From: Escherichia phage PhaxI
Direction: 5' to 3' (one strand)
Length of the DNA: 64,000 bases
Sequence record: JN673056
Below are positions 35,054 through 64,000 of this stretch, one piece after another (the first letter of the stretch is position 1; each line of letters opens with the position of its first letter). A program made the translations under genes and the position numbers. The notes under the pieces are model-generated. The model was not told where the DNA came from, did not search any database, and worked only from the letters and a program-made list of their open reading frames with translations.

Positions 35054-35100
35054 AATGATCTCCTTTCTGAGTAATATAACCCCATATCTTAGAAAAGAAA

Positions 35101-35120
35101 ACCCCGCACATGGCGGGGTT
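35101..35120 (-). terminator. rho-independent terminator after major capsid gene (AAACCCCGCC-ATGT-GCGGGGTTTTCTTTTCT on minus strand)
   Basis: 7-bp GC stem and T-run immediately 3-prime of gp23 stop. Confidence 0.75.
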
Positions 35121-35150
35121 TGATTATAGCGTAAGTCTTTGTTTTAGCTA

Positions 35151-40978: not shown

Positions 40979-41437
40979 CTAATTAGTCGTCAATCTTTTA
41001 ATCTTCATGGAAGAAAAATCAAATCCGTGGTCAACATTGCTTAAAACGGGTTCTATTTCACACAATTCCCAACGGGGATCTATGAGAGAAACAAGACCAA
41101 TGTGTTCACCTGTGGATGTCAATTTTGCTGCAGTTTTACCCAGCATATGACTTCCATCATTACCGCCTTTATTCATGTTGTAACCCATCTCATAAGAATT
41201 ATATTGAGCGATGAGTTGCTTCTCTAATTCCCATTTATGGACTTCATCGGTCTGAGCAATTACAACGAAAGTAAATCCAGATGTTCCATACTTACGCATG
41301 GCATCATACAATTCACTTTGGACTCCATGATGAAAAGCATTCGCAAAATGCTGATCATATCTTCGTTGTGGGTTATTGGTTACACCGATGTAGACCTTTC
41401 CATTAGTTATCGTTTCAATTTTGTATGCGTATATCAT
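40979..41437 (-). CDS. GIY-YIG homing endonuclease
   Basis: MIYAYKIETITNGKVYIGVTNNPQRRYDQHF is a canonical GIY-YIG motif with the conserved Arg; inserted between gp19 and gp18. Confidence 0.7.
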   Translation of the reverse strand: MIYAYKIETITNGKVYIGVTNNPQRRYDQHFANAFHHGVQSELYDAMRKYGTSGFTFVVIAQTDEVHKWELEKQLIAQYNSYEMGYNMNKGGNDGSHMLGKTAAKLTSTGEHIGLVSLIDPRWELCEIEPVLSNVDHGFDFSSMKIKRLTTN

Positions 41438-41504
41438 TTCAAATTCACCTCTATTTTATTTAGTGTTGAACAATTTCGGGGTATTATGCTCTTGGAGGTG
41501 TTAT

Positions 41505-48543: not shown

Positions 48544-49254
48544 ATGATCGTCCTGACAGAAGGAATTGCTTCTAAAAGAATCAAATCATATGCTTCTTCT
48601 AGAGGTGGAATATTTCACGGATTTGTCGGTGGTAAATTTGTCACCAACCAAACTAAGTGCATTTTGTCTTGCGAATTTGGTCATGAATGGAACTCAGCAA
48701 CTTATGCGAATTTGATAAATAAAGGAAGTTGGTGTCCTTCGTGTCGTGGAAACAAGAAGATCTCAAATGAAGAAGCTAAAATCAGGATATCGGAGTACGC
48801 CGTAAGCAACGGTGGTAAATTCATAAATTTCATTGGCGGGAAGTACAAAGACAACGTGACAATTTGTGTCATGGAATGTTCTGAAACGCACAGGTGGGAA
48901 TCCAGGTACGGTAATTTAGTCAACAGCCGAAGTTGGTGTCCGTATTGCGCAGAATCGGGTTACAATTATTCTAAGGAAGGTTTCTTATATATTCTAGTCA
49001 ACGACGAAGGTTGTATGAAAGTGGGAATAACCAACTCGCCTAAGAAACGTATAAATTGTTTGAGAAGCACCACCCCGTTTTACTTCAACGTTCTAGAAAT
49101 ATTTAATTCAACTGACGGATTATTTGTTTCCAGGTTGGAAAGAATTGCCCATAGAATGTGTAAGAGCGCGGGGTATAAGGATTTTGACGGTGCTACCGAA
49201 TGGTTTGTATACGATGGATCAGTCGTAGATTTTATCAGAAATATTTTGAAGTAG
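48544..49254 (+). CDS. T5orf172/GIY-YIG-superfamily nuclease domain protein with two N-terminal zinc-ribbon repeats, plus-strand
   Basis: C-terminal GFLYILVNDEGCMKVGITNSPKKR...EWF fits the T5orf172 pattern; N-terminus has two about 70-aa repeats each with C..C..H.W...SWCP.C; SD AAGGTG. Confidence 0.55.
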   Translation: MIVLTEGIASKRIKSYASSRGGIFHGFVGGKFVTNQTKCILSCEFGHEWNSATYANLINKGSWCPSCRGNKKISNEEAKIRISEYAVSNGGKFINFIGGKYKDNVTICVMECSETHRWESRYGNLVNSRSWCPYCAESGYNYSKEGFLYILVNDEGCMKVGITNSPKKRINCLRSTTPFYFNVLEIFNSTDGLFVSRLERIAHRMCKSAGYKDFDGATEWFVYDGSVVDFIRNILK

Positions 49255-50923: not shown

Positions 50924-53900
50924 TCATGCCAGAGCAATAAGACGGAAGTCTTTGAATGAAGGAGGAGCAACTCGGTTCCCCCTTACAAGTGCTCTGACTT
51001 TCAGTCCAACGAACGGATTGTTGCTTGCCACAGTCTTATCATACTCATATTCAAAGAATGTAGAACCGTCGTTAACCAGAGGCGAAGTTGGAGTAACGTC
51101 TTCCCAATCCACGCTATCCATCTCTTGACCTGCTCGGAGCAGTTTTACCTGCACCTTCATGGAGGATTGAGAAGGCAGCATCGCCCCGAAGAACAACTTC
51201 ACAGTAGAACACGGATTATCAAATCCGATGTCCTTTGTCACGTATTTGAAGACATCTTCAAATGGATCCACACCGTATGAGTTGAAGATTACGCTCAGGT
51301 CATCGCCATCAATCATTGGAGCAGTGTACACGTTGTTTTCACTACGCGTCATGGTGGCTCGGATTTGGAAATCCCCGACCTGACGATAGATACCTTCAGT
51401 CGGCAATGCCACGTCAGTGTCAGTTTCAAACTCAGCCCAATCAGACATAGAATTTGAAGTGGCATCGCGATAACGGTATTCCAATTTCAGAATTGAACCT
51501 TCCAGAGCCGAATTGGTAACGCTGGCATAGAACATATCAACCAGATAATTGCCCAAGAAAGAAGCATTATCTCCACCGATTTGTCCATTGCTGTCTGCTG
51601 CCGTACCGACGTCAATCTTGAATGAAGTATAGCTCGCATCTGTCACAGTAAACGTTTTGTTAAGTTGTTCAGGAGTAAAGCCACAACCGCCTGTCAATTC
51701 AGAAAGAGTGACATTGTTCCCAGCAACCAAACCATGACCAGGTGCAAACACAGTCACAACAGAAGACCCGCTTACGCAGTTCAGAGTATTCAATCCCAAC
51801 GGACGTTGTTTTGGCCCGAGCTTCGGATCAAATGTTACAACGTTCTGCCCCGCAGCGAAGTTACAACGATATATGCGGAATTTCATATCAGCCATTTGGT
51901 TTGGAGACCATGTAGAACCGTTTGAAGAAGTGAAGAACACCCCTGTATACGGTTGTTTGGCGATATATTCGTTGGACAGAAGGTTTTTCTTGCCCATTTC
52001 CGCGATATACGCGTTGTAATCCTGAGTATTCGCCAACAAAACGATAGCAAACTCAGTCGATGCTTGCAGATACACCGGATAATCAAAGGTGAACTTCGTA
52101 CCGCCGGAAGAGTCTGTAGAGATCGTCACTTCAGACGGGTTCAAAGTTTTACGAGTAATGACTGTATGAGAAGGTAAGCCATTCTCCATCTCGCGAATTT
52201 CCAGAGTGATCGGAACATCACGTGACTTGGTAGAGAAGAATACTTCCACGCCTTCAATATACTCGCCGCCATTCTTAGTCGCTACCATAAACGATTGGGC
52301 AATCGGATCACGCCATTGGTCGACCACAACTTCAGAAGTGCTGGTTTCGGTGCGAGTACTAGCAGTGTAACCCAGGACACGAGTGTTGACAAAGGTCTTT
52401 TGAATACCTTGTTTCTTACCGAAAGATTTATGAACAATTTCTGCATTGGTCAGTGTATCATCCGCAGATTTACTGTCAACAGGGCTATCCGTTAAGCGGA
52501 ACACGTTGTCGCCTGTGTTGAACTTGATTGTATCGTTCTGTGGAACGCGGAATATACCTTTAACAGCACCATTGGCATCAGTGGTGATTGGGTCACCGAA
52601 ATTACCACCATTCGGTTTGCAATACAGATTGACGTCACGACCAGAGAAGAACGCATACATACGAGTGAAAGGTCGCAGCCCAGATGCGTCGAAAGAAATA
52701 TCGATCTCGCGCATGTATGGGATAACTTGCGTCTCCACAATCTGTTCACCAGTCATGGTCGTGGTTGTTTTGTCCGTGTATGTATATGCGGTGACATCAC
52801 GGGCAGAAACAGTCGTGCGGTAAGGATATCCCCCCCACACACCACCAGCGCCATGCGGTTCCCAAACACGATCAGAAACAGAAACAGTATGCCATGTTCC
52901 GTACACTGAACCTTCTTGTACAGTACCACGGGTGTTGATCGTTTCATTGATAATACGCGGCGCAACATAATAGTTTTCGAACCAGTAGTCTGTGGTCGGG
53001 TTAATCTTCAAGAAACCTTCCCAATTGAATACTGCATACGGGTTAACGTTGATCGTCGTCGTCGCATATTCTTGGTTCACTGAGATTTCAGGCGTGTAAT
53101 TACAAACCACCATCCCATCCATCACTTTGTTCCAGCCAACAGGAGTCATGTCAACAACGTTCTGTTGTACAAACGGGCGTAGACGTCCGTTTTCGGTATC
53201 GATAGAACCCATCCAATCTTCAGACAAGTCATCAATCAACCGGAAGTCTTTGAACGGATCAGCTGCAATACCATTTTTGAAACGGGGATTGCCCGTGATG
53301 GGGTCGAACACTTGCTGTGTCATCGCTGAAGATTCCAACTGTGACAGAGAGGTATAGTATTCAACATTGGAAATACGGGTTTCCAGTTTACCGATATCGC
53401 GCATTGTATACCGACGATTATCAATAGTTCGAATTTGGATATCATCAATATTCGGCGTATACGGCGGGATCAACAGTTCATACAAACGCATGGCGTTCGC
53501 TGGGATTGCTGGAGAAGCCAGGTTGTTAGAACTGATGCCACGAGCCACTCCGAACACGCCGTTGTCTGCCAGATAAATCGCGTCGATGCGCGGCAGATAA
53601 TATTCTGTGTCCAGAATAACTGCAGTGTTTGGACGAACCATATCTGTGTCAGAAGTTCCGTTGGTGATTTTCGGACGGAAATCCAAACTATCTGCCAGGC
53701 CGTACACCGCGCCTGATGTAGAAGATGTATAATTCGGGATATCTTTATAATCCATCGAAGTATACGAATCAGCAGAGAAGAAATCACCGGAACTGTGGGC
53801 GAAGTATTGATACACCACTGTATACGTCCCTGAGATTGCTCCAGCGCTGGATAACAAGTTAGACTTGTAATACCCTGCATCACGCTGTCCGCCGTCTAGG

Positions 53901-55762
53901 ACGAAGCTGGAGGTCACGTCTGCGCCAGTATCGTTTTTTACCGACACCAATTTCCAACCATCGTGATTCGCCAAAGGACGGCTAGTCTGCGAGGTGAACG
54001 TCACTGTTTCAGTTGTTTCAGTGATGGTCTTCGTTTTGATTGTGGCCGTGGTACGAATCATCAGCGCCAGCAAATTGATTGACTGGTTAGCATTACCACT
54101 GCCTAGAGAAATCTGCAGCGCCGAACCGACCGGAGAACCAGTCAAAGACAAAGAACCAGAGATATCGAACTGCGCTTCAGAACCATCAGATTTCGCTGCA
54201 GAGTACAACGAAAATTCTGGGGAAAAACTATATCCCAATGGAGCAGAAATAGAACCCGCGCCGCTGTTGTCCAACGTCACTTTATACGTTCTGAGAACAG
54301 TGTAGTTGATATCCACGGAGCCAGTTGGTGCTAAAGTCTTGACACCGAATACCGGAAGAGAGAAGATCAGATCTATCATAGAACTCTGGTTAAACTGATT
54401 GGATTCCAGTTCAGCAGAGAACATGGTGATACCGCTTTCTTCGTAAGACACTTTGGTGATAGTGGACGCGTCCCCAGTCACAACTAAATCACGCATGTAC
54501 AGGCGGAATTCAGTTGAATTGCGTTCAGCGGATATACACAACGCCGTGGCTTGAGTAGCGCCGGATGCATTCAATAACTTGTATCGCACAGTGCGAGATA
54601 TTACTGGAACACCTTTGGAGTTCTTGGTGACCAGATAATTCCCTGTAGCAACTGCGACAGGCGTGTTATTCAGGACATCGGTATCCCGTGCCTTGTCAAC
54701 GATCACCAACTCTTCCCCGACGTTTTCGATACGACGACCGCGAACATAGGAAATACCTGGTTTCATTACAGACACGAATTTACTTTCGTCGCCGCCATCA
54801 GCAGCATTGAATACACCACCATTGTTATTGACTTTCAGGTGTTCGCGGATGTCGATCTGGTGCGTTGAAACGTTGTAATCGCCGTTGGTTTCATACGTCC
54901 GTTGGGCCAACGTGTCTTCCAGAATATTATAGGTGGACTGAGTCACCATAGACTGGATTTTACCATCACGAACTTTGGCCAGTTCAACAAAGTCTTCAAC
55001 CACAGCATCATAATCAAATCGAGATAAGACCAGATCTATTCGAAGACGATGAGCGCCTGGGGCTTTGGAGTTAATCGTTCCCTGAGCATTTGAATAAAGG
55101 GATTCGTCTTCAGATTCAGTCACGATGGTTTCAGTGACTTTAAATCCGACGCGGTGGGAAGACGTGTTCGAAGTTTTATCAACGATAAGAGTTGCGTCAT
55201 CAACGTCTAGGAACATCCCACGAATGAAGTAAACGCCTTTCGTCATACGAGCAACGATAGAACCAGTCACAGCAGCCGCGATACCATAACCAATACGAAT
55301 GAAATTATCATTCACGTCGTAAGTCTGGAAATACAGATTATCGTTAACATGGAATCCGTCAGCATTACCCGCTTCAGTCATCTCAAGGATAGCCAGCATT
55401 GTATCAGGAGCAGACAGATCACGTTCAAGAGACAACACACGCGCTTTGGCGTTATTGTCTTTCCCCAAAACGTAGAGTTCAGAAATACCTTCCAGATCAG
55501 TGAATTCAGTACCACCAGCCAAAGTGAATTTCAAAGAGACTGCGGCATTGGTAATCGTCAGACCACCAGGGATAACCATAGAACCATCTTTGAACAAATG
55601 GTTGCCCAGTTTTTCAATTTGATCCTGAAGAATAGTCTGCATCTGGTTCAGTTCGCGAGTCTGAACCTTGATAGGCATCGGACGAAAAAGAATCCGTGAA
55701 AAACGTTTCCCAGGATTCCAGTCATCCCAATACGGGCGACGGTTTAAATTTGTAGATTGCAT
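50924..55762 (-). CDS. very large virion structural protein (1612 aa; putative baseplate/tail fibre component)
   Basis: Single uninterrupted ORF, ATG 55760-55762; location between tailspike cluster and neck genes; Thr/Ser/Gly/Asn-rich as in fibrous proteins; function inferred from context only. Confidence 0.5.
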   Translation of the reverse strand: MQSTNLNRRPYWDDWNPGKRFSRILFRPMPIKVQTRELNQMQTILQDQIEKLGNHLFKDGSMVIPGGLTITNAAVSLKFTLAGGTEFTDLEGISELYVLGKDNNAKARVLSLERDLSAPDTMLAILEMTEAGNADGFHVNDNLYFQTYDVNDNFIRIGYGIAAAVTGSIVARMTKGVYFIRGMFLDVDDATLIVDKTSNTSSHRVGFKVTETIVTESEDESLYSNAQGTINSKAPGAHRLRIDLVLSRFDYDAVVEDFVELAKVRDGKIQSMVTQSTYNILEDTLAQRTYETNGDYNVSTHQIDIREHLKVNNNGGVFNAADGGDESKFVSVMKPGISYVRGRRIENVGEELVIVDKARDTDVLNNTPVAVATGNYLVTKNSKGVPVISRTVRYKLLNASGATQATALCISAERNSTEFRLYMRDLVVTGDASTITKVSYEESGITMFSAELESNQFNQSSMIDLIFSLPVFGVKTLAPTGSVDINYTVLRTYKVTLDNSGAGSISAPLGYSFSPEFSLYSAAKSDGSEAQFDISGSLSLTGSPVGSALQISLGSGNANQSINLLALMIRTTATIKTKTITETTETVTFTSQTSRPLANHDGWKLVSVKNDTGADVTSSFVLDGGQRDAGYYKSNLLSSAGAISGTYTVVYQYFAHSSGDFFSADSYTSMDYKDIPNYTSSTSGAVYGLADSLDFRPKITNGTSDTDMVRPNTAVILDTEYYLPRIDAIYLADNGVFGVARGISSNNLASPAIPANAMRLYELLIPPYTPNIDDIQIRTIDNRRYTMRDIGKLETRISNVEYYTSLSQLESSAMTQQVFDPITGNPRFKNGIAADPFKDFRLIDDLSEDWMGSIDTENGRLRPFVQQNVVDMTPVGWNKVMDGMVVCNYTPEISVNQEYATTTINVNPYAVFNWEGFLKINPTTDYWFENYYVAPRIINETINTRGTVQEGSVYGTWHTVSVSDRVWEPHGAGGVWGGYPYRTTVSARDVTAYTYTDKTTTTMTGEQIVETQVIPYMREIDISFDASGLRPFTRMYAFFSGRDVNLYCKPNGGNFGDPITTDANGAVKGIFRVPQNDTIKFNTGDNVFRLTDSPVDSKSADDTLTNAEIVHKSFGKKQGIQKTFVNTRVLGYTASTRTETSTSEVVVDQWRDPIAQSFMVATKNGGEYIEGVEVFFSTKSRDVPITLEIREMENGLPSHTVITRKTLNPSEVTISTDSSGGTKFTFDYPVYLQASTEFAIVLLANTQDYNAYIAEMGKKNLLSNEYIAKQPYTGVFFTSSNGSTWSPNQMADMKFRIYRCNFAAGQNVVTFDPKLGPKQRPLGLNTLNCVSGSSVVTVFAPGHGLVAGNNVTLSELTGGCGFTPEQLNKTFTVTDASYTSFKIDVGTAADSNGQIGGDNASFLGNYLVDMFYASVTNSALEGSILKLEYRYRDATSNSMSDWAEFETDTDVALPTEGIYRQVGDFQIRATMTRSENNVYTAPMIDGDDLSVIFNSYGVDPFEDVFKYVTKDIGFDNPCSTVKLFFGAMLPSQSSMKVQVKLLRAGQEMDSVDWEDVTPTSPLVNDGSTFFEYEYDKTVASNNPFVGLKVRALVRGNRVAPPSFKDFRLIALA

Positions 55763-55795
55763 TTTGATGCTCCATCGATTGCCATTTTATAGAGA

Positions 55796-55802
55796 TATTT
55801 AG
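55796..55802 (-). promoter_or_regulatory. late-promoter-like motif CTAAATA (also TATAAAAT nearby) upstream of 1612-aa gene
   Basis: Minus-strand TACTAAATATCTCTATAAAATGG 20-40 nt upstream of ATG. Confidence 0.4.
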
Positions 55803-55830
55803 TATACAGCCAATAAACAGATAGAAATAA

Positions 55831-55856
55831 AAACCCCGCCTAAGCGGGGGTTTTGT
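55831..55856. terminator. bidirectional terminator (CCCCGC-CTAA-GCGGGGG) with T-runs on both strands
   Basis: AAAACCCCGCCTAAGCGGGGGTTTTGTT. Confidence 0.7.
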
Positions 55857-55919
55857 TAAACAGTTACGTTATAATGTTTACTACATCATTAAAATATTGA
55901 TTAATTTACTACTATGCTG

Positions 55920-56543
55920 TTAATCAGTATACGCCATCAAGAACATAATAAGCTCATCATAGCGTACTCCGTACCTTACTCCTGCTGGTTTAACTATTAC
56001 AACTTCTTCTAACGTTTCTGGATTAATGATTATTTCAGAAGACGCTTCCCATTCGTCCTTGCACCAGAATGCGTAATCCTCTGGTTTAAGTCCGTGCTTT
56101 GTCAGGATAGAACCAACAGTTTGCGCACCAACGCCGAAGTGGACTCGTGCAGACTCTTCTCCCTTAATTTCTATAGCGTCAGTAAACTTATAGCGAATAA
56201 TATTATTGCGAATTTCATTAGCCGCTTCCCTTTCCGCACTCTCGTTTGTTGCTGGGGTTTTTACCTTCAGTGTTTCATCGGAGGTGCTTATTGTTCCCGT
56301 TGCAGCATAGACAACAGACCATCTATGTGATGTATATCCTAATACGGTCGTATTGTCTGTATCAGGCATAAATCCATTGTATCCACCAATCTTAAGGTCG
56401 CCATTTGGGTTTCCGGATGACGTTTTACCATCATAACTTCTCAGAGTTACTCCTTTCGTTCCGGCAGTGGTATCTACCAAGATACCAGCGTTGGTAGAAC
56501 CTAGAAGCTGAATTCCACTATTATCATTACGCAAATCCTGCAC
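55920..56543 (-). CDS. hypothetical protein (207 aa), possible C-terminal fragment or accessory of tailspike
   Basis: GTG start in track; frame is open about 50 codons further upstream; lies directly downstream of a short tailspike ORF. Confidence 0.35.
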   Translation of the reverse strand: MQDLRNDNSGIQLLGSTNAGILVDTTAGTKGVTLRSYDGKTSSGNPNGDLKIGGYNGFMPDTDNTTVLGYTSHRWSVVYAATGTISTSDETLKVKTPATNESAEREAANEIRNNIIRYKFTDAIEIKGEESARVHFGVGAQTVGSILTKHGLKPEDYAFWCKDEWEASSEIIINPETLEEVVIVKPAGVRYGVRYDELIMFLMAYTD

Positions 56544-56738
56544 AGGTGCTTCAAGTACAGTTGCTGTAAATTTCCATTTTGTATCGGAATAAAATTCAGC
56601 AGGTGAAGTATCATCACTTTGTATGATTACCGCTTGTTTGCCAGATTCTCTTCTACGACACCAGCAATATTTTTCTGGGTTGGATCCCAGTTACTAGAGA
56701 CAAGCACCCCATCAAATTCTACTAATGATTCAAAAGGT

Positions 56739-58163
56739 TTACCTACTGCACGCGTTGGGGTTTGGGACAAAAATACCCCAGTTCCAATCAAAGAAATTGT
56801 TATACGTACCAACATTATCATCTATCTGATACCCACGAGTGCATAATTCGCCAAAATAACCATAGAATCGCAAGTTACCAGCAACTTGGGTGTCACTGCT
56901 CACCCTTTTAACAACACGTACCGCACAAGGTACATCAGCAGGCCAAGTGCCTTGTGTGATGTTCTCTGAATGTCCACCGAATACGCGAAGGCTATCTGTA
57001 CTTTCAATCCAGAAGCTACAGTTACCGGTTGCATGGTGCGGGTCGTATATATGAATGCGGGTATTATTATTATCGCCACTCTCTGATCGTTCGAAGAAGA
57101 AACCACAGTCAACACGTTCGAAGTTAGGATTCATAATGGAATGGTAATAAGCACCACTATTGCTACCACCTACAGTTGGGCCAGGTTTGAACTTGATACC
57201 AATCTTAACACCACGTGCTCGTGGGTTCTCCATTACACAGAACTGCTGAGATACACGCACTGTTGTTTGAGTTTCATTTTCTGGTGCAATAGCATAGGCG
57301 ATAACGTCAGTGTGGTTACTTGGGTTAATTACTGTTGGATTTATAACGTGGCAGAAATCATGACTCATGCGAATACAGGTAATGTTATTGGCACCTGCCA
57401 CAATCACTGTCCCAGTGAAATCCAGATAGCGAGTTGACATTACATCCTGGGTATATGAACCGTCAAATTTCATTACGAGGCTATTCGTAATGAGATACTT
57501 AGCCCCAGGTCTGCCAACCAACTTACCGAAAGGTATCCCCTCTAGCCACACTAATGCTTCCAACATTGAGGCAGTGTCATTAGTAACCCCATCTCCAATC
57601 GCACCAAACTCTTCAAATGATTTTATTGTAGTAACCCGATGGGCAATTTGGTCAATTGTTGGACCATACTTTGTTAGGTCAGTTATAAGAGACGTAGCCC
57701 CAACACTAACCCAAGCACCCACGCCAATCCCGCCAGATTCTTCTGGTGTTGAACTGGCAGGTACACTTTTAGGCAATGCCCCATCCCAACGGTATCTACC
57801 ATCTGTAAAAGTAACCAATTCATTCTTGGTATTAACAGTTACACCAGTAGAGAATGAACCAGGTAGAGTTACATACTCTTCACGAGTAACAGCTAATGCA
57901 CCAAGGTCTACATTACCTCCAGAATGAACCAATACACCAGCAGTATTAAGACTGACGGCAGTAGTACCAGCACCAAGGTCAGTAGGTAAGGAATAAGCTC
58001 TCTGTGTTACTTTATCATAGATGACTTTATAGCCACTTAATACAGCACCGATAGAGAAGTAAACAACCTCAGATTGCTTAACTCCAAAGTGACGAGCTAC
58101 TGCTTGCTTGTTGGTTAAGATTCCAGTTGAACCTTTTCCACCTTGTGAGAACAGTTCGTTCAT
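56739..58163 (-). CDS. tailspike protein, short (474 aa) with conserved N-terminal module and start of beta-helix
   Basis: N-terminal 140 aa near-identical to residues 275-412 of tailspike at 61088-64000; GAIGDGVTNDTASMLEAL is typical of pectate-lyase-like beta-helix entry. Confidence 0.6.
   Translation of the reverse strand: MNELFSQGGKGSTGILTNKQAVARHFGVKQSEVVYFSIGAVLSGYKVIYDKVTQRAYSLPTDLGAGTTAVSLNTAGVLVHSGGNVDLGALAVTREEYVTLPGSFSTGVTVNTKNELVTFTDGRYRWDGALPKSVPASSTPEESGGIGVGAWVSVGATSLITDLTKYGPTIDQIAHRVTTIKSFEEFGAIGDGVTNDTASMLEALVWLEGIPFGKLVGRPGAKYLITNSLVMKFDGSYTQDVMSTRYLDFTGTVIVAGANNITCIRMSHDFCHVINPTVINPSNHTDVIAYAIAPENETQTTVRVSQQFCVMENPRARGVKIGIKFKPGPTVGGSNSGAYYHSIMNPNFERVDCGFFFERSESGDNNNTRIHIYDPHHATGNCSFWIESTDSLRVFGGHSENITQGTWPADVPCAVRVVKRVSSDTQVAGNLRFYGYFGELCTRGYQIDDNVGTYNNFFDWNWGIFVPNPNACSR
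57690..58100 (-). repeat. tailspike N-terminal module, DNA copy A (paralogous to 62750-63160)
   Basis: Encodes SEVVYFSIGAVLSGYKVIYDKVTQRAY...YRWDGALPKSV..GGIGVGAWVSVG; roughly 80 percent nucleotide identity by eye to copy B. Confidence 0.7.
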
Positions 58164-58213
58164 ACATACCTCTTTGTTTTTCTAGTGATATCCCTCCGAA
58201 GAGGGGTATATTT

Positions 58214-60997
58214 TTAAATAGAAGAATCCAATATACGGTAACTAATTAACTTAGTAGGGTCTACAGGATTAATCAGGTTGTAGTACCGTGAAGATACATA
58301 ATCATTCTCAGAAGAGAACATACCAACATACACTTTAGCACCTACACCAGAACAGGCATCCCCACCAGCATTGCTATCCGAGAAGAATGTTAATGAGGAA
58401 GTTAATCCGAATATAGAATTAAATGGTACGGCTAAATAAGCGCCTCGGAATGACCGTCTGATTCTCTTACCCGTCTGAATATTAAGAATACTCCACCAGA
58501 AATATCCAGGTTTAGCACCAATAGCTATATGATATGGTACACCACTTTGTAGTTTAAGGTCGTTAGGTAAATCCCCAGATAAAATTTGGGTTGTACCATC
58601 GCCCCCCAATAGCAAAGCAATTGTTTGTTTTCCAGAAGCGTCTATAACTAATTGAAGATGAAGACTGTTGGATGTATCACTAAACCCTGAACCAATGGCC
58701 ATGAAGTTAAATACTTCAGCTCCAGATATGGTAGGTACTACAACAGCAGCCATGGTAATACCTTCTGGACCTGCTGTTCTTGAATACAGTAATTTATCTT
58801 TGTTGGCTTGTGATAGTCTCAGACCATTTACTTGCCCTACAGAAGATGGGACACTTACATAAACAGGTGTAGTGCTAACACCATCAAATGTAGGGGTCTC
58901 GTTCATGGTTTGCAAACCAGTCTTGGAATAATTAACCAATCCGTTAATGCTCAGGTCGGAATTGGTGGGGTTGATAATATTGTTATCACCAATAAAGTTA
59001 ATGCCCATATAACCAGTCTCAACCACACCATTAATGGTGACACTACAATCATTAGACAGGAACTGAAAATTGCCTGCACTAGAGTTAGCACCTGAACCAC
59101 TATTCGCGGCATAATTGAGTCCTACGAATCCGTTGATAACTGCATCGCTTTTGTTAAATACGATGTTGTAGAAAGTGTTGTTAGCATTGATGCCGTTACG
59201 ATTGGTGTTCAATCCGTTCATGGAAATTGAATATGAATCGCTAATCTCAATGCCATTCCCGCCACAATCTTGTACCTCAATACCATTAATAACCATATTC
59301 TGGCTGTTATTAATAGTAATGCCTGGGAACTGTCCTACTGTACCATAAGGTTGCCAGTTAGCCCAAATGAATTTACCGCCCAATAAATACGAACCATTAC
59401 CACAACCATCAAGAACCAGACATTGTTTACCGCAGGTATTAACCTGGATATTTGTCCAAGTCCAATCAGTAGTAGCACAACGGACACCCACCTGATTGAT
59501 GTGGTTGACTAAAAGAGAATCTGTAGTAACACTAAAGTTACCACTATCAATATTTAACCCATATTCATCAAAACCTGCTATATGGACCTTAGAAATACAC
59601 AAGTCGCGTCTTGGGTCTGCGGTAGTGTGGAACGGATAATCGGCTGAGAGACCTGAAGGAGTTTCTACATAGATACCTGTTGTGCCCGCAGTAAATGGCA
59701 TGCCTTGTTGTGCACCTGTGCCATATACCCCAAAGGCGTCTAATACAATAAGGGAGCATGTATCTTTTATGGTAATACAATTCCCAGTAGCAGAAGGCAA
59801 CTGATGCAACCTTGAGTAATGTAATCCAGACCCATAAATAGACGACGTATTATATTTTAACTGGATATTGCTAACGTAATGTGCATCAGTTAATTGTGTG
59901 GCCTTACCACTATCCACACAAGATTGTACTGGAATAGTATCATCATTAGAACCACCCAAAGCACCAAACATGAATGGGTTAACTCTATCAGCATTAACAC
60001 GTAACCATGCCGCGCCGCCAACAGTTTTGATCACAGTACCGTTATTATCAGTCTTTCCTGTACCATCAATTAACGCACGGAATACCCCTCCACCAAGAAG
60101 AGTACCCGCAGTGTGTTGCTTAAGAATAATGCGTTGTCCATCCATAGTGGGTTCAGTATTCCTGAGATCAGCAACAGAATGGCATTCTCCAATATACTTG
60201 GCACCATCATTGCGCCCCAGAGTGTTTATCACATTAATAAATGAATCCTCTAAAGGCAACAAATCAACCTGCACATCACCTGGGTTGTAATTCAATTTCC
60301 CAGCAGATACAGAAGAAATGACAGAACCATCAGGAATGGTTGGTAAACCATAACTGGTTTGCGTCGCTATATCATAAACAACTTTCTTCCCATCCAACAA
60401 AGATATGGTGTCCGTACTAACGATGACTTCAGAGTCTTTTACATTAGCAGAACGGGCGATTTCTTGAATACTTCGGTCAAACGCCGGACTGATATTCGGT
60501 TGTTTAACAGACATTTCAGCGACTACCCAAACGCCTGCAGTCAGTGCAGTTTGCAAAGACACTTTCCCTGTCGTGCTGTTATAGGAATATTCAATTTCGG
60601 GTGTTTTGTACTCGCCACCGATATAAAGAGATTGGACACCATAGGATGTGAAATCAGGAGTGAACTCGGTTTCACCTCCCACGGCCTGAAATTTGTATAT
60701 GCGGATACCTTTGGCTGTATCTTCTGGCGAAAGAATTTTATCGAATAAGCAATACACAACATCGCCTTTGGACAATGCGCGCCCGAGATTCAACGTATTT
60801 CCTTCGATTTCAAAGTTGTCTAACGGAACTTGCATACCACCGTTGATTGTGACTACGCCAGTGACAGGATAGAACGGCAAGGAAAGGAAAGTTTCTCCAC
60901 CAACATTTGATTTATACGTGAAAGGAATCTGGTGGGGAGCTGTGATTACGCCGCCGAATAATTCTTCTACATTTCTGGTCATTTGAAAATACCCCAT
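58214..60997 (-). CDS. tailspike protein (927 aa) with beta-helix and C-terminal lectin-like domain
   Basis: Contains weaker copy of shared module (ARSANVKDSEVIVSTD..VVYDIATQTSYGLP), Gly/Asn-rich repetitive beta-helix region, C-terminal domain LHLQLVIDASGKQTIALLLGGDG. Confidence 0.6.
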   Translation of the reverse strand: MGYFQMTRNVEELFGGVITAPHQIPFTYKSNVGGETFLSLPFYPVTGVVTINGGMQVPLDNFEIEGNTLNLGRALSKGDVVYCLFDKILSPEDTAKGIRIYKFQAVGGETEFTPDFTSYGVQSLYIGGEYKTPEIEYSYNSTTGKVSLQTALTAGVWVVAEMSVKQPNISPAFDRSIQEIARSANVKDSEVIVSTDTISLLDGKKVVYDIATQTSYGLPTIPDGSVISSVSAGKLNYNPGDVQVDLLPLEDSFINVINTLGRNDGAKYIGECHSVADLRNTEPTMDGQRIILKQHTAGTLLGGGVFRALIDGTGKTDNNGTVIKTVGGAAWLRVNADRVNPFMFGALGGSNDDTIPVQSCVDSGKATQLTDAHYVSNIQLKYNTSSIYGSGLHYSRLHQLPSATGNCITIKDTCSLIVLDAFGVYGTGAQQGMPFTAGTTGIYVETPSGLSADYPFHTTADPRRDLCISKVHIAGFDEYGLNIDSGNFSVTTDSLLVNHINQVGVRCATTDWTWTNIQVNTCGKQCLVLDGCGNGSYLLGGKFIWANWQPYGTVGQFPGITINNSQNMVINGIEVQDCGGNGIEISDSYSISMNGLNTNRNGINANNTFYNIVFNKSDAVINGFVGLNYAANSGSGANSSAGNFQFLSNDCSVTINGVVETGYMGINFIGDNNIINPTNSDLSINGLVNYSKTGLQTMNETPTFDGVSTTPVYVSVPSSVGQVNGLRLSQANKDKLLYSRTAGPEGITMAAVVVPTISGAEVFNFMAIGSGFSDTSNSLHLQLVIDASGKQTIALLLGGDGTTQILSGDLPNDLKLQSGVPYHIAIGAKPGYFWWSILNIQTGKRIRRSFRGAYLAVPFNSIFGLTSSLTFFSDSNAGGDACSGVGAKVYVGMFSSENDYVSSRYYNLINPVDPTKLISYRILDSSI

Positions 60998-61017
60998 AAA
61001 GGATTTGCCAATATGGG

Positions 61018-61025
61018 GTATTTAG
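61018..61025 (-). promoter_or_regulatory. late-promoter-like motif CTAAATAC upstream of 927-aa tailspike gene
   Basis: Minus-strand CAGCCTAAATACCCCAT about 25 nt upstream of ATG 60997. Confidence 0.4.
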
Positions 61026-61087
61026 GCTGAACTAATAAAATTTATAATAAGATCCCCCCGCTTTTGGCGAGGAGGGATGGTTGTTAA

Positions 61088-64000
61088 TCATATCAATCCG
61101 TAAATGACATTGTGTATTGCAATACCACCAACAATAGAGGAAACATTGAAATTAATTTCAGCTTTGTAAGCTCCTGGCGGAACGCAATCCACCAAAGCAT
61201 AAAAGTTGAACGTGTTTCCTACTGGGATGTTATATCCTATGGAATCCGCGACAGCATTTCCTTGCTGGTCCAGGAATCTAATTGATGCCAGGGTGGTTGT
61301 TGTATTTTTAGCCCAAAAACCAAGTTGAAAATAACGCCCAGGCTCACAGTCAATGATTGTCTGGGTGAAATTAGCCGCTGCACCCACTGATGGTACGGAT
61401 AAGACAAAAGAAGTTGAAAACATTAAATCATTAGGGACATCATTTCCTACAGTAGCGGTGACAACGCCGGATCCAGTTTGTGACAGCGCCCAGTTAGATA
61501 TATTATTAAACTGTCCTGAACCGTTACTAATACTGTTTATATGAGGGCTTACAATGCATCCTAAATCCCAGTTACTTGTGATAAATCCTGCGCGTGGATA
61601 GCAACCTCTAGACATTACTTTTTTACTTAATCCGCCTATCAACTGCCTTGTGGCAAATCCAGTAGCAATCGTTGTATTCCCATAGAGTGGTAGCGAACAA
61701 TTATTTAGAATAACAACCCCATCCCCGTTGTTTACAATAGGTACTGTAGAATAATCATTTGGCAACAGTATCGTCGAATCACTGATGCTTAATCGTGAAC
61801 TACCATCCACAGTAAACCCAACGAAACTCTGACCTGGTTGATACTCAATGTTACCGTTTGTGAAAACCATAGTTGCGTTATCAGATAACGCGACAACAGG
61901 GTCAAAATATCGTGATTTTTTTACTGCTGGCAGAGAGCAGCTATCGAATATAAATTGACCATTAACAAACGTGAAAGGTCCACCGTTGTCAACCATCCAA
62001 CAATGATTAAATTTTATAACCTCACCGGAATTCGCTGGTGAATTGAAAATAACAGAATTTGTAAAACTTCTGGACAACGTACATTTATCAAAAAGAATAC
62101 GATATGCATTATCAAGAAACTCAATTCCGGCAGTTGAGATAAACCCGCAATTAGATATTCTTAACTCTGAGACTTCTCCACTGGTAGAACCACCGATCGC
62201 CAATTTCCTGGTCCCTTTTCCAACAAATGACACTCCAGTCATTAACGCAGTTGCGTTAATTACATCTCTATTGGTGTAATCCGTGTCTGTATTAACAATG
62301 GTTAGATAGTAGCCGCCCGTTGCAGATGCAGATTCTATTAGAGTACATTTATTTTTTCCAATAAGTGCACCTTTTGCTATATCAAAAATAATCGGTGTTG
62401 TTATCTCACCAGAAACAGGGACTACACAGTCAAATCCGACGGCATTTATTTTATTGATGAATATAGCCAAATCTCCGGTTCCTGTATAACCAGCTTCGTA
62501 CACATCCACCACACCGTTGAATAATTTCCTTTTCCAAACGACACCATTGCCTTGGAAAGTAACGATATTATCTACCACAGTATCTGAGTTAACAGCCACC
62601 ATAACACCGCCACCAAGATTAAACCCGTCAACATACGAATCAAGAATTATAGAATCACCAATTAATCCTGCTATTGATGATAATTCAGAAACTGATGATA
62701 CGGTTCCTATATAAGATAAGCCATTCGGTTTATTTAAATTACTTTTCAGAGATGCAACACCAACACTCAACCATGCACCTAAACCAACGCCACCAGATGT
62801 TTCAGGTGTTGAGCCAGCATCGACAGTTTTAGGAAGTGAACCATCCCAGCGATACTTACCGTTCGTATGGGTGAGTAATTCATTTTTAGTATTGATGACA
62901 GCACCAGAATCAAATGTCCCAGACAAGGTAACATACTCTTCACGAGATACAGCTAATGCGCCCAGATCAACACTACCAGCAGAATGCACAAGCACAGCCG
63001 AAGAACTAAGGCTGACCGCCGTGGTTCCAGTCGGTAGCTCTGGAATAAAATATGATCTCTGTGTTACTTTATCATAGATAACTTTATACCCGCTTAACAC
63101 TGCACCAACACTAAAATAAACAACCTCTGTATCTTTAACATTGGTTACACGAGCCACTTCCCGCAAAGTATAATCAATTTGATTATAGATGTTTGGCGTT
63201 CCATTGATAATTACAACAACTTCATCCTCTGCATCCAGTTCTTGCGCAAGAGTGATTTTACTGGTTAATGGATCGAATGTGAACCCCAGGTTTTTATACT
63301 GGCGACTTCCGTTTATATCAATGGCTGGAACATCATCGACAACGATGTCTAACGTGATTTCGGTTTCACCACCAATCGCAGAACCACCATTATAGACCCA
63401 GGTAATCGTAGAAGAACTAGAACCACCGCCATTACCCAATTGAATAGGAGTATATTCTATTACCTGCAATTCAGTGCTGGCTGGCAAAGAAGGACTGAAA
63501 GTGATTACATTCCCATCTAATGAATATTTGGATTCCGCAAGACGTTTTCCGTCAGCATACACGTCCACAATTGTTGGTGGAGTATTGAGAGTGACAGCAC
63601 TTGTTTCAGACGCCAAAATTTGTGTAAAGATTTCACGACTGTAGACACGGCCTTGACCAAGACCGACGCCGGATGTGATAACCCAACCTTGTTCATGTCC
63701 AGACCAAGTGAACGTTGCTGAAACATTATCAGTTGTTATAGCCATGTCTTCAGTGGAACCATACAAATTATTTCCAGAAGGAGACACGGTCAATGGGTAA
63801 GTGGCAAATTTCCCATAAGCATCACAAATAGTAACGGAATCCCCAATACGCGTAGGGGAAGGGAGAACCACTGTAGATGTCCCTGTGGTATTATTAATGA
63901 GATATCCACGACCTTCTAACAAATTGCTAGAGGGAGCGTGAGGGAGCGTTTCCCAGCGTATTCCACCACCCCCCAAAGACAACCAACCACCGTTTTCGTA
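61088..64000 (-). CDS. tailspike protein, 5-prime partial (more than 964 aa; frame open to window end)
   Basis: Track start at 63982 is TTG and frame continues to 64000; contains shared attachment module (residues 275-412) and long beta-helix-like region. Confidence 0.6.
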   Translation of the reverse strand, partial: YENGGWLSLGGGGIRWETLPHAPSSNLLEGRGYLINNTTGTSTVVLPSPTRIGDSVTICDAYGKFATYPLTVSPSGNNLYGSTEDMAITTDNVSATFTWSGHEQGWVITSGVGLGQGRVYSREIFTQILASETSAVTLNTPPTIVDVYADGKRLAESKYSLDGNVITFSPSLPASTELQVIEYTPIQLGNGGGSSSSTITWVYNGGSAIGGETEITLDIVVDDVPAIDINGSRQYKNLGFTFDPLTSKITLAQELDAEDEVVVIINGTPNIYNQIDYTLREVARVTNVKDTEVVYFSVGAVLSGYKVIYDKVTQRSYFIPELPTGTTAVSLSSSAVLVHSAGSVDLGALAVSREEYVTLSGTFDSGAVINTKNELLTHTNGKYRWDGSLPKTVDAGSTPETSGGVGLGAWLSVGVASLKSNLNKPNGLSYIGTVSSVSELSSIAGLIGDSIILDSYVDGFNLGGGVMVAVNSDTVVDNIVTFQGNGVVWKRKLFNGVVDVYEAGYTGTGDLAIFINKINAVGFDCVVPVSGEITTPIIFDIAKGALIGKNKCTLIESASATGGYYLTIVNTDTDYTNRDVINATALMTGVSFVGKGTRKLAIGGSTSGEVSELRISNCGFISTAGIEFLDNAYRILFDKCTLSRSFTNSVIFNSPANSGEVIKFNHCWMVDNGGPFTFVNGQFIFDSCSLPAVKKSRYFDPVVALSDNATMVFTNGNIEYQPGQSFVGFTVDGSSRLSISDSTILLPNDYSTVPIVNNGDGVVILNNCSLPLYGNTTIATGFATRQLIGGLSKKVMSRGCYPRAGFITSNWDLGCIVSPHINSISNGSGQFNNISNWALSQTGSGVVTATVGNDVPNDLMFSTSFVLSVPSVGAAANFTQTIIDCEPGRYFQLGFWAKNTTTTLASIRFLDQQGNAVADSIGYNIPVGNTFNFYALVDCVPPGAYKAEINFNVSSIVGGIAIHNVIYGLI
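62750..63160 (-). repeat. tailspike N-terminal module, DNA copy B
   Basis: Encodes TEVVYFSVGAVLSGYKVIYDKVTQRSY...YRWDGSLPKTV..GGVGLGAWLSVG. Confidence 0.7.

What the first reader, a model, noticed from the sequence alone, without database searches (positions are those of the whole stretch)
57690..63160. Shared N-terminal module duplicated between tailspike genes (modular tailspike cluster)
About 140 aa (about 400 bp) are nearly identical between the 474-aa tailspike (residues about 20-160) and the partial 964-aa tailspike (residues about 275-412); a diverged copy is in the 927-aa tailspike. Downstream beta-helix regions are unrelated. This is the architecture expected when receptor-binding domains are swapped onto a common attachment domain, as in multi-tailspike Ackermannviridae-type phages, and marks the host-range-determining region.
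Basis: partly seen in the sequence, partly recalled or inferred. Interest (0 to 1): 0.55.

Follow-up and report, generated by a model that had tools for sequence, protein, structure and literature searches.

The report
Shared head module of PhaxI tailspikes
The repeat is real, but it is the already described TD1-TD2 "head" module shared by the tailspike genes of Kuttervirus phages. The window is the published E. coli O157 phage PhaxI, so this is an ordinary, known host-range cassette system with a few strain-specific quirks.

Summary
It is not "nearly identical". It is 71% identical in protein and about 70% in DNA, with dS 1.4 and dN/dS 0.16. That matches the paralog baseline in CBA120, FEC14 and S115, so the copies are old paralogs, not a recent duplication.

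The module is the TD1-TD2 tandem domain (Pfam PF18668; PDB 4OJ5, 5W6F, 5W6H) of Kuttervirus tailspikes. Three window proteins match Escherichia phage PhaxI exactly. The literature already describes this module, the docking of TD1 on XD3, and the swapping of receptor-binding domains among TSP1, TSP3 and TSP4.

Corrections and additions:
- The "474-aa tailspike" is a 747-codon tsp1 (as in phage SS9) broken by a +1/-1 frameshift pair.
- The cluster has three tsp genes; tsp3 is absent.
- From the RWDG codons of TD2 onward, PhaxI tsp4 is 99.7% identical to FEC14 tsp3. This shows a recent exchange between paralogous positions with its breakpoint inside the shared module.
- Each cassette also has a conserved leader of about 60 nt as a 3' homology arm.

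Verdict: interpretation supported, already known, low interest.

The parts
55920..58163 (-). tsp1 (TSP1) gene, 2244 nt, equivalent to the 747-aa TSP1 of phage SS9. It is interrupted by two frameshifts, so it reads as a 474-aa ORF (56739-58163) plus a 207-aa ORF (55920-56543).
   Evidence: 97.1% nt identity over the whole length to the SS3/SS9/SeKF_64 tail protein. SS9 annotates a single 2244-nt CDS. Alignment to SS9 shows one extra G and one missing T. The 474-aa product is exactly AEW24389.1 of phage PhaxI.
57684..58106 (-). Copy 1 of the shared module: TD1-TD2 tandem domains of TSP1 (residues 20-160).
   Evidence: BLASTP E = 3e-60 to the TSP4 copy. PDB 4OJ5 (CBA120 TSP1) residues 1-216, E = 5e-83; 5W6F/6NW9 (TSP3); 4QNL. 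Pfam PF18668 Tail_spike_N on residues 91-155.
56661..56779 (-). Frameshifted stretch of tsp1. There is a +1 (extra G in a G-run, about 56779) and a -1 (T missing from TT, about 56661), 118 nt apart. The annotated frame has 5 stop codons between them. The shifted frame still encodes SS9-like protein.
   Evidence: MAFFT alignment to SS9 tsp1 and three-frame translation.
55920..56543 (-). C-terminal part of tsp1, now a separate 207-aa ORF. It carries the endosialidase-type stalk and the Peptidase_S74 intramolecular chaperone.
   Evidence: Pfam PF13884 Peptidase_S74 at 22.5 bits (cut-off 22) and a weak PF12219 hit. Collinear with SS9 TSP1 residues 541-747.
58214..60997 (-). tsp2 (TSP2), 927 aa, the O157-specific type.
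   Evidence: PDB 6W4Q (CBA120 TSP2) over the full length, E = 0; 5W6P. About 99-100% nt identity to FEC14 and CBA120 tsp2. Exact match to PhaxI AEW24390.1. O157 specificity is from the literature on TSP2-1 (PMC8432352).
60257..60466 (-). Diverged half-copy of the module in TSP2 (TD1 only, residues 178-247).
   Evidence: 28/69-74 identities (38-41%), E = 5e-7. The literature states that TSP2 has TD1 only (PMC8432352).
60998..61087 (-). Intergenic region. It holds a terminator-like hairpin after tsp4 (61054-61074) and a conserved leader of about 60 nt (TATAAATT...ACCCCATATTGG...) that precedes tsp genes. This is the position where other kutterviruses carry tsp3.
   Evidence: Terminator scan. Alignment of seven tsp intergenic regions from PhaxI, FEC14, CBA120 and an EP75-like contig. 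CBA120, FEC14 and S115 all have tsp3 here.
61088..64000 (-). tsp4 (TSP4), the last 970 codons. The N-terminal ~66 codons, by comparison with the 1036-aa CBA120 protein, lie beyond the window end.
   Evidence: PDB 7REJ/7RFO (CBA120 TSP4 N-terminal XD domains) on residues 1-272, E = 1e-173. PDB 5W6H (CBA120 TSP4) on residues 278-970, E = 0.
62747..63157 (-). Copy 2 of the shared module: TD1-TD2 of TSP4 (residues 282-418 of the 970-codon reading).
   Evidence: PF18668 on residues 350-414. PDB 4OJ5, 5W6F and 6NW9 hit residues 273-431.
62840..62854 (-). Mosaic boundary inside TD2 (codons for R-W-D-G). Upstream the sequence is the tsp4-type backbone. Downstream it is 99.7% identical to FEC14 tsp3.
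   Evidence: Upstream of the boundary, 141 of 144 informative sites are tsp4-type. From 62839 downward, 15 of 15 are FEC14-tsp3-type. Window 61088-62839 differs from FEC14 tsp3 at 5/1752 sites and from CBA120 tsp4 at 91/1752. The backbone 62855-64000 is 97.8% identical to CBA120 tsp4 and 94.8% to FEC14 tsp4.
61091..62746 (-). Receptor-binding (beta-helix) part of TSP4, the O78-type cassette (subtype TSP4-2 / TSP3-3).
   Evidence: PDB 5W6H, E = 0. PMC8432352 lists PhaxI under TSP4-2 and predicts E. coli O78.
63185..64000 (-). XD (T4 gp10-like) assembly domains of TSP4. They are partly homologous to the TSP2 N-terminus and form a second shared module.
   Evidence: PDB 7REJ/7RFO/7RFV. TSP2 104-249 vs TSP4 207-351 gives 34% identity, E = 1e-17.

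Best explanation
**What it is.** The two copies are the TD1-TD2 tandem "head" domains of the tailspike proteins TSP1 and TSP4 of a Kuttervirus (Ackermannviridae). The window is Escherichia phage PhaxI. TSP2 keeps TD1 only. The module is an old paralogous structural unit, kept similar by purifying selection. It sits between the assembly part of each spike and an unrelated beta-helix receptor-binding domain. The assembly part is the free N-terminus in TSP1, and the anchor plus gp10-like XD domains in TSP4 and TSP2.

**How it works at the protein level (from the literature).** TD1 of TSP1 docks on XD3 of TSP4, and TD1 of TSP3 docks on XD3 of TSP2. This builds the branched four-spike complex.

**How it works at the DNA level (shown here by mosaic boundaries; mechanism inferred).** The module is the 5' homology arm of a receptor-binding cassette. 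A conserved leader of about 60 nt in front of the next tsp gene is the 3' arm. Homologous recombination between phages, or between paralogous tsp positions, can therefore move a cassette from one spike position to another and change host range.

**What the PhaxI cluster shows.**
- From the RWDG codons of TD2 through tsp2, it is 99.4-99.7% identical to the tsp3-tsp2 stretch of phage FEC14, but it is joined to a CBA120-like tsp4 backbone.
- tsp3 is missing.
- tsp1 carries a disrupting frameshift pair.
- The phage is therefore predicted to display TSP2 (O157) and TSP4 (O78-type), and possibly no functional TSP1.
For: **Identity of the phage and cluster.**
- Three window proteins match PhaxI exactly.
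- DNA is 95-98% identical to kutterviruses.
- Gene order matches CBA120, FEC14 and S115 except for tsp3.

**Identity of the module.**
- PF18668 hits both copies.
- PDB 4OJ5, 5W6F, 6NW9 and 5W6H hit the module in both proteins.
- XD domains are identified by 7REJ/7RFO, and TSP2 by 6W4Q.

**Old paralogy under selection.**
- Protein identity is 71%, equal to the 63-74% seen against the TSP1, TSP3 and TSP4 modules of other phages.
- dS is 1.37 and dN/dS is 0.16.

**Recombination at the module.**
- Sliding identity and informative-site analysis place the boundary at 62840-62854.
- The junction 60850-61250 is 99.8% identical to the FEC14 tsp3/tsp2 junction.
- The conserved leader plus terminator architecture is seen in the intergenic alignment.
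- There are signs of short gene conversion from a tsp4-type TD1 into PhaxI tsp1. At paralog-divergent sites, 8 of 10 lineage-specific changes match the tsp4 base (p about 0.003), and there is a 24-nt exact run.

**Literature.**
- TD/XD architecture and docking: PMC11721090 and PMC11414711.
- Swapping among TSP1, TSP3 and TSP4, TSP3-3 = TSP4-2, and some kutterviruses with three tsp genes: PMC8432352.
- Laboratory tsp4/tsp5 chimeras and tsp3 deletion: PMC11414711.
Against: - Nothing contradicts the identification of the module.
- The direction of the PhaxI/FEC14 exchange is not resolved. An EP75-like tsp4 shares the exact 44-nt junction sequence with PhaxI but has a different receptor-binding domain. 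Its full patch is only 85% identical. Many tsp4 genes have related TD2 ends. The RWDG boundary may therefore partly reflect allelic mosaicism among tsp4 backbones.
- tsp3 loss could equally come from recombination between the conserved leaders in a CBA120-like ancestor.
- Docking of TD1 on XD3 and the O-antigen specificities are taken from papers on CBA120 and were not tested here.
- The tsp1 frameshifts lie in short homopolymers and could be sequencing errors.
Confidence: 0.9

Rival explanations
1. The two copies result from a recent segmental duplication within this genome, as the word "duplicated" and the phrase "nearly identical" suggest.
For: The two copies are in direct orientation, 5.06 kb apart, in genes of the same family.
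Against: - Nucleotide identity is only 70%, third positions are 49% identical, and dS is 1.37.
- The PhaxI TSP1 module is no closer to PhaxI TSP4 (71%) than to the TSP4 of CBA120, FEC14 or S115 (69-70%). It is closer to the TSP1 of other phages: 94% to SS9 and 74% to CBA120.
- The same paralogs exist in every kuttervirus examined.
Confidence: 0.02
2. The similarity of the copies is maintained mainly by ongoing gene conversion between tsp genes (concerted evolution), rather than by selection on a shared fold and docking function.
For: - There is a cluster of PhaxI-specific substitutions in tsp1 TD1 that match the tsp4 base: 8 of 10 at paralog-divergent sites, with a 24-nt exact run at 58005-58028 (binomial p = 0.003).
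- The tsp1 module region is more diverged from SS9 (94.0%) than the rest of tsp1 is (97.1%).
Against: - Overall the copies are not homogenised within the genome.
- dN/dS of 0.16 with saturated dS indicates purifying selection on the protein.
- The putative tract is at most about 24 nt.
- The donor could be a TD1 from another phage rather than PhaxI's own tsp4.
Confidence: 0.12
3. The three-gene cluster and the split tsp1 are artefacts of the PhaxI assembly: a collapse between the tsp4 and tsp3 modules, plus homopolymer miscalls. On this view they are not biology.
For: - Both tsp1 indels lie in short homopolymer runs: GGGG versus GGG, and T versus TT.
- No other record in the phage collection has tsp4 directly followed by tsp2. 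Only FEC14 covers the junction, and there it is a tsp3/tsp2 junction.
- Only PhaxI carries the 474-aa form.
Against: - The paralogous modules are only about 60-70% identical around the boundary, which is too diverged for an assembler to collapse.
- Isolated single-base indels against CBA120 elsewhere in about 47 kb of the window all fall between genes (read against the annotation). This suggests the sequence is not generally error-prone.
- The literature accepts that some kutterviruses have three tsp genes (PMC8432352).
Confidence: 0.12

Closest known systems
Branched tailspike complex of Escherichia phage CBA120 (TSP1-4; PDB 4OJ5, 6W4Q/5W6P, 5W6F/6NW9, 5W6H, 7REJ)
   Same: - Same genus and same gene neighbourhood (vriC, tsp1, tsp2, ..., tsp4).
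- tsp2 is 95-100% identical.
- The tsp4 backbone is 97.8% identical, and tsp4 has the same O78-type receptor-binding domain (94.8% nt).
- Same TD1-TD2 and XD domain architecture.
   Different: - PhaxI has no tsp3.
- Its tsp1 receptor-binding part is of the SS9 type, not the CBA120 O21 type, and it is frameshifted.
- Its tsp4 switches at RWDG to an allele that is 99.7% identical to FEC14 tsp3.
Escherichia phage FEC14 tsp3 (subtype TSP3-3) and tsp2
   Same: Window 58214-62839 is 99.35% identical to the FEC14 tsp3-tsp2 stretch, including the intergenic region. It carries the same O78-type cassette.
   Different: - In FEC14 the cassette sits on a TSP3 head, with no XD domains, and a separate tsp4 (TSP4-7, O21-type) lies upstream.
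- In PhaxI the cassette sits on the TSP4 backbone, and there is one gene fewer.
Salmonella phages SS9/SS3/SeKF_64 TSP1 (747 aa)
   Same: 97.1% nt identity over the whole tsp1 (94% in the TD module). Same C-terminal S74 chaperone region.
   Different: The SS9 gene is intact. The PhaxI gene has a +1/-1 frameshift pair that truncates the product at 474 aa.
Head domain of the G7C-like podophage tailspikes gp63.1/gp66 (PDB 4QNL; Pfam PF18668 'TSP1/Gp66 N-terminal domain')
   Same: PhaxI TSP1 residues 1-155 match 4QNL with E = 1e-69. Both copies hit PF18668. So the module is a portable spike head that is also used outside Ackermannviridae.
   Different: It occurs in a different virion context, a podovirus with a two-spike branch, and it is not part of a four-gene tsp cluster. 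The architecture is known from the literature (PMC6517402) and was not examined here.
Laboratory-evolved S117 tsp4/tsp5 chimeras and tsp3 deletion (Sorensen et al. 2024, PMC11414711)
   Same: Recombination between tsp genes through the conserved 5' modules gave a TSP4 N-terminus fused to another spike's receptor-binding domain and loss of tsp3. This is the same outcome as the natural PhaxI arrangement.
   Different: Those phages were engineered and selected in the laboratory, whereas PhaxI is a natural isolate. The exact breakpoints were not compared.

Membership tests
Kuttervirus (Ackermannviridae) tsp gene cluster / CBA120-type branched receptor-binding complex | High nucleotide identity and synteny with kuttervirus genomes: vriC, then the tsp genes, then baseplate genes, all on one strand. 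| tested here: met
   253 phage records match, the best at 95-98%. Synteny with CBA120, FEC14 and S115. Exact protein matches to phage PhaxI.
Kuttervirus (Ackermannviridae) tsp gene cluster / CBA120-type branched receptor-binding complex | Four tailspike genes in the order tsp4-tsp3-tsp2-tsp1. | tested here: not met
   Only tsp4, tsp2 and tsp1 are present. A 90-nt spacer lies where tsp3 sits in CBA120, FEC14 and S115. The literature accepts three-gene kutterviruses (PMC8432352), so this is a variant, not an exclusion.
Kuttervirus (Ackermannviridae) tsp gene cluster / CBA120-type branched receptor-binding complex | TSP4 with gp10-like XD1-XD3 domains upstream of TD1-TD2; TSP2 with XD2-XD3 plus TD1. 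| tested here: met
   PDB 7REJ/7RFO, E = 1e-173, on TSP4 residues 1-272. PDB 6W4Q, E = 0, on TSP2. TSP2/TSP4 N-terminal homology, E = 1e-17. The anchor domain of TSP4 lies outside the window.
Kuttervirus (Ackermannviridae) tsp gene cluster / CBA120-type branched receptor-binding complex | Unrelated beta-helix receptor-binding domains downstream of the conserved N-terminal modules. | tested here: met
   PDB 5W6H for TSP4 and 5W6P/6W4Q for TSP2. No significant similarity between the C-terminal parts of the three proteins. The fold of the TSP1 C-terminal part was not determined; it has no PDB match beyond residue 211.
Kuttervirus (Ackermannviridae) tsp gene cluster / CBA120-type branched receptor-binding complex | Physical assembly: TD1 of TSP1 docks on XD3 of TSP4, and the XD2 domains of TSP2 and TSP4 bind each other. 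| not testable with these tools
   Taken from work on CBA120 as summarised in PMC11721090 and PMC11414711.
Pfam PF18668 Tail_spike_N (TSP1/Gp66 N-terminal domain) | Score above the curated gathering threshold (25 bits). | tested here: met
   TSP1 residues 91-155 score 86.7 bits. TSP4 residues 350-414 score 79.8 bits. TSP2 has no hit, consistent with TD1 only.
Peptidase_S74 intramolecular chaperone (C-terminus of tsp1) | Pfam PF13884 above threshold (22 bits), located at the C-terminus of a fibre or spike protein. | tested here: inconclusive
   The 207-aa ORF scores 22.5 bits, just above threshold. The intact SS9 protein scores 18.1 bits, below threshold. The position at the C-terminal end fits.

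The most novel reading that the evidence does not exclude
The PhaxI tailspike cluster is a natural product of unequal recombination between the shared TD2 modules of tsp4 and tsp3. A CBA120-like recipient recombined with a FEC14-like donor, which removed one whole spike gene. Independently, tsp1 has decayed to a pseudogene. On this reading PhaxI is a two-spike kuttervirus (O157 plus O78-type). It would be a natural counterpart of the tsp3-deletion and tsp4-chimera phages obtained in the laboratory, and an example of host-range narrowing through the same module that normally diversifies host range.
Probability: 0.35. Interest if true: 0.3.

Novelty: already known. Interest (0 to 1): 0.15.

Why it matters
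The module and its role are textbook for Ackermannviridae. It marks where receptor-binding cassettes are exchanged, and it is already used to engineer host range. The window adds only strain-level detail:
- A clean natural example of a cassette shared between a tsp4 and a tsp3 position, with the breakpoint at the RWDG codons of TD2. This lies about 60 codons downstream of the GTTAVSL motif proposed in the literature.
- A conserved intergenic leader that can act as the second homology arm.
- A correction to the PhaxI annotation: the 474-aa "tail protein" is a truncated 747-codon tsp1.

These details could help when choosing crossover points for chimeric spikes, and when interpreting the host range of PhaxI.

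Tried and rejected
- **PhaxI record.** I looked for it in the annotated phage collection under NC_019452 and JN673056. It is absent. Identification therefore rests on exact protein matches and on a paper that cites JN673056.
- **PhaxI genome paper (PubMed 23676434).** It is not held. Its mass-spectrometry and host-range data could not be checked.
- **Supplement of PMC8432352.** No usable text for PhaxI, FEC14 or SS9.
- **Direction of the PhaxI/FEC14 exchange.**
  - I compared the 33 codons after RWDG with tsp3- and tsp4-type sequences.
  - I searched IMG/VR for the exact junction 44-mer. It gave one EP75-like contig whose tsp4 shares the junction but not the receptor-binding domain.
  - I surveyed the patch in the phage collection.
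  - The result was inconclusive, so I dropped the firm claim that PhaxI arose by deletion from a FEC14-like ancestor.
- **Sequence quality.** I checked whether the window is generally error-prone by listing small indels against CBA120. Isolated indels are all intergenic. This neither proves nor disproves that the tsp1 frameshifts are real.
- **Not run.** Structure prediction and fold search were not run, because near-identical solved structures exist for TSP2, TSP4 and the TD module. The TSP1 receptor-binding fold therefore remains unassigned.
- **Rejected.** The + strand ORFs that overlap the module (for example 57490-57927) were not treated as genes, because they lie antisense to a conserved coding region.

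Full report
**1. What is in the region**

All long ORFs between 50.9 and 64.0 kb are on the minus strand:
- a 1612-aa ORF at 50924-55762;
- a 207-aa ORF at 55920-56543;
- a 474-aa ORF at 56739-58163;
- a 927-aa ORF at 58214-60997;
- a reading frame that is open from 61088 to the window end (970 codons).

The "964-aa" TTG start is an artefact of the window edge.

**2. The observation**

The repeat finder reports two in-register direct repeats: 57674-57970/62734-63030 at 70% and 57992-58082/63049-63139 at 80%. The spacing of 5060/5057 shows they are one repeat with a 3-nt indel.

| Comparison | Result |
|---|---|
| 474-aa ORF residues 20-197 vs tsp4 frame 280-455 | 106/179 identities, E = 3e-60 |
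| Core (137 aligned residues) | 71% identical (TD1 72%, TD2 66%) |
| 927-aa protein vs first half of the module | 28/74 identities, E = 5e-7 |

The C-terminal parts show no significant similarity to one another. The repeat is therefore real, correctly placed and far beyond chance.

It is not "nearly identical":
- codon-aligned nucleotide identity is 69.8%;
- third positions are 49% identical;
- dS is 1.37 and dN/dS is 0.16.

The PhaxI TSP1 module is as far from its own TSP4 (71%) as from the TSP4 of CBA120, FEC14 or S115 (69-70%). It is closer to the TSP1 of SS9 (94%) and of CBA120 (74%). The copies are old paralogs under purifying selection, not a recent duplication.

**3. Where the window comes from**

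The region matches 253 phage records, almost all Kuttervirus (Ackermannviridae). The best are BSP101, CBA120 and FEC14 at 95-98%.

An exact-sequence look-up shows three proteins identical to Escherichia phage PhaxI: the 474-aa protein (AEW24389.1), the 927-aa protein (AEW24390.1) and the 1612-aa VriC-like protein (AEW24356.1), all on a 156,628-bp contig. The PhaxI record itself is absent from the annotated collection. A paper on EP75 cites it as GenBank JN673056.

**4. What the module is**

- Pfam PF18668 (Tail_spike_N, "TSP1/Gp66 N-terminal domain") hits TSP1 residues 91-155 and TSP4 residues 350-414.
- The module matches the solved head domains of CBA120 TSP1 (4OJ5), TSP3 (5W6F/6NW9) and TSP4 (5W6H), and of G7C gp63.1 (4QNL).
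- TSP4 residues 1-272 match the CBA120 TSP4 XD domains (7REJ/7RFO, E = 1e-173). Residues 278-970 match 5W6H with E = 0.
- TSP2 matches 6W4Q over its full length.

The literature calls the module TD1-TD2. All four CBA120 spikes have it, except that TSP2 has TD1 only. TSP4 and TSP2 carry gp10-like XD domains upstream of it (PMC8432352). TD1 of TSP1 docks on XD3 of TSP4, and TD1 of TSP3 docks on XD3 of TSP2 (PMC11721090; PMC11414711).

In TSP4 the attachment functions lie upstream of the shared module.

**5. The cluster has three spike genes, and tsp1 is broken**

CBA120, FEC14 and S115 all have the order tsp4-tsp3-tsp2-tsp1-vriC. In the window, the tsp4 stop (61088) is separated from the tsp2 start (60997) by only 90 nt. 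The ~1.9-2.2 kb tsp3 gene is absent. PMC8432352 states that some kutterviruses have only three tsp genes. It lists PhaxI under TSP2-1 (O157) and TSP4-2 (O78 predicted), but under no TSP3 subtype.

The "474-aa tailspike" is not a complete gene:
- The stretch 55763-57700 is 97.1% identical to tsp1 of SS3/SS9/SeKF_64.
- SS9 annotates one 2244-nt gene of 747 aa there.
- The window has an extra G near 56779 and lacks a T near 56661.
- The 39 codons between these positions are SS9-like only in the shifted frame. The annotated frame meets five stop codons there.
- The 207-aa ORF is the displaced C-terminus, and it carries the S74 chaperone signature.

Both indels lie in short homopolymers, so sequencing error cannot be excluded. 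However, isolated 1-nt indels against CBA120 elsewhere in the window all lie between genes (read against the annotation).

From general knowledge of S74 chaperones, losing this domain should prevent trimer maturation. If the frameshifts are real, TSP1 is probably non-functional. This last step is inference.

**6. A recombination boundary inside the shared module**

Sliding-window identity shows that window 58259-62850 is about 99-100% identical to the FEC14 tsp2 plus tsp3 stretch. Beyond about 62850, the match to FEC14 tsp3 falls to 55-60%, and the window instead follows tsp4 backbones.

In a five-way alignment, 141 of 144 informative sites upstream of 62855 are tsp4-type. All 15 from 62839 downward are FEC14-tsp3-type. 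The switch therefore lies in the codons for R-W-D-G of TD2.

| Window stretch | Compared with | Result |
|---|---|---|
| 61088-62839 | FEC14 tsp3 | 5/1752 differences |
| 61088-62839 | CBA120 tsp4 | 91/1752 differences |
| 62855-64000 (backbone) | CBA120 tsp4 | 97.8% identical |
| 62855-64000 (backbone) | FEC14 tsp4 | 94.8% identical |
| 60850-61250 (junction) | FEC14 tsp3/tsp2 junction | 99.8% identical |

So a 4.6-kb block has recently been shared between a tsp4 position (PhaxI) and a tsp3 position (FEC14). The block runs from TD2 through the receptor-binding domain, its terminator, the leader and tsp2. PMC8432352 had already noted that TSP3-3 (FEC14) and TSP4-2 share their C-terminal parts, and it proposed GTTAVSL in TD1 as the crossover site. 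For this pair, the near-identity starts about 60 codons further on, at RWDG.

**7. The other end of the cassette**

An alignment of tsp intergenic regions from four phages shows two things. Each spike gene is followed by its own hairpin terminator. The next gene is preceded by a conserved leader of about 60 nt containing TATAAATT. From my own knowledge, TATAAATT resembles the T4 late-promoter consensus TATAAATA, and CBA120 encodes a gp55 late sigma factor. Promoter function is inferred.

The PhaxI/FEC14 spacer combines the terminator that follows the O78-type domain in CBA120 with the leader that precedes tsp2. Receptor-binding cassettes are thus flanked by two conserved sequences: the TD module on the 5' side and the leader on the 3' side.

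**8. How tsp3 was lost is not resolved**

Two single-event routes give the observed structure:
- an unequal crossover between TD2 of a CBA120-like tsp4 and TD2 of a FEC14-like tsp3;
- a deletion between the leaders flanking tsp3 in a CBA120-like ancestor, with FEC14 tsp3-3 then derived from a PhaxI-like tsp4.

I tried to polarise the event:
- The 33 codons after RWDG are not clearly tsp3- or tsp4-type.
- The exact 44-nt junction also occurs in the tsp4 of an EP75-like IMG/VR contig with a different receptor-binding domain. That patch is only 85% identical overall.
- Many tsp4 genes have related TD2 ends.

The direction stays open. Assembly collapse is unlikely, because the paralogous modules are only 60-70% identical at the boundary. 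Laboratory evolution of phage S117 produced the same kinds of product: a TSP4 N-terminus fused to another spike's binding domain, and deletion of tsp3 (PMC11414711).

**9. A hint of gene conversion**

The TD region of PhaxI tsp1 is 94.0% identical to SS9, against 97.1% for the rest of the gene. Of 10 PhaxI-specific changes at sites where tsp1 and tsp4 differ, 8 take the tsp4 base (binomial p = 0.003). These include a 24-nt run identical to tsp4 (ATCTATGATAAAGTAACACAGAGA, 58005-58028), which changes DKES/DKET to DKVT. This suggests short conversion tracts between TD1 modules. The donor could be another phage.

**10. Verdict**

- The repeat is confirmed, with a corrected degree of identity.
- Everything essential is already published for CBA120 and relatives, and the window is the published phage PhaxI.
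- The strain-level additions are of modest, specialist interest. They are the RWDG breakpoint, the two-arm cassette structure, the missing tsp3, the frameshifted and mis-annotated tsp1, and the possible conversion tract.

Noticed in passing
window 56661 and 56779 (tsp1, minus strand): A +1/-1 frameshift pair 118 nt apart splits a 747-codon tsp1 into the annotated 474-aa PhaxI "tail protein" and an unannotated 207-aa ORF. The 207-aa ORF carries the S74 chaperone. This is either a pseudogene or a pair of homopolymer sequencing errors.
   Followed up: yes
window 60998-61087: tsp3 is absent. Only a 90-nt spacer lies between tsp4 and tsp2, where CBA120, FEC14 and S115 carry a 1.9-2.1 kb gene.
   Followed up: yes
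window 60998-61050; also L001 7283-7394 and 9279-9377, L002 6805-6909 and 9043-9144: A conserved leader of about 60 nt (TATAAATT...TCAGACTAAATACCCCATATTGG...TATGGGGTATT) precedes tsp2 and tsp3 in all phages compared. Each tsp gene is followed by its own hairpin terminator. The leader looks like a late-promoter/leader unit and could act as a second recombination arm.
   Followed up: partly
window 58005-58028 (tsp1 TD1): A 24-nt run is identical to tsp4 TD1 (63062-63085 region). It contains PhaxI-specific substitutions that match the tsp4 base, which suggests a short gene-conversion tract (8 of 10 sites, p about 0.003).
   Followed up: partly
window 60983-60997: The PhaxI annotation starts tsp2 six codons upstream (MGYFQM...; 927 aa) of the start used for CBA120 and many relatives (921 aa). 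The solved structure 6W4Q aligns from residue 6.
   Followed up: no
window 55920-56600: The C-terminal (chaperone) part of tsp1 shares 78% nt identity with a "non-contractile tail fiber protein" of the 41-kb Escherichia phage vB_EcoS_P1338. This suggests the C-terminal module is exchanged with unrelated phages.
   Followed up: no
window 48544-49254 (+ strand): A 236-aa ORF with T5orf172/MUG113 (GIY-YIG-like) and CapR domains lies between the gp14 and gp13 neck genes. It is absent at this site in CBA120 but annotated as "endonuclease" in SS9. It is probably a mobile homing-endonuclease insertion.
   Followed up: partly
window 41421-42293 (+ strand): An insertion of about 850 nt relative to CBA120 sits next to a GIY-YIG (SegD-like) gene at 40979-41437. 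It contains a 290-aa ORF with no Pfam match.
   Followed up: partly
window 33700-35151: This stretch did not align to CBA120 by megablast. CBA120 has about 2.0 kb of small hypothetical genes there, upstream of the major capsid gene. It is a variable region that I did not examine.
   Followed up: no
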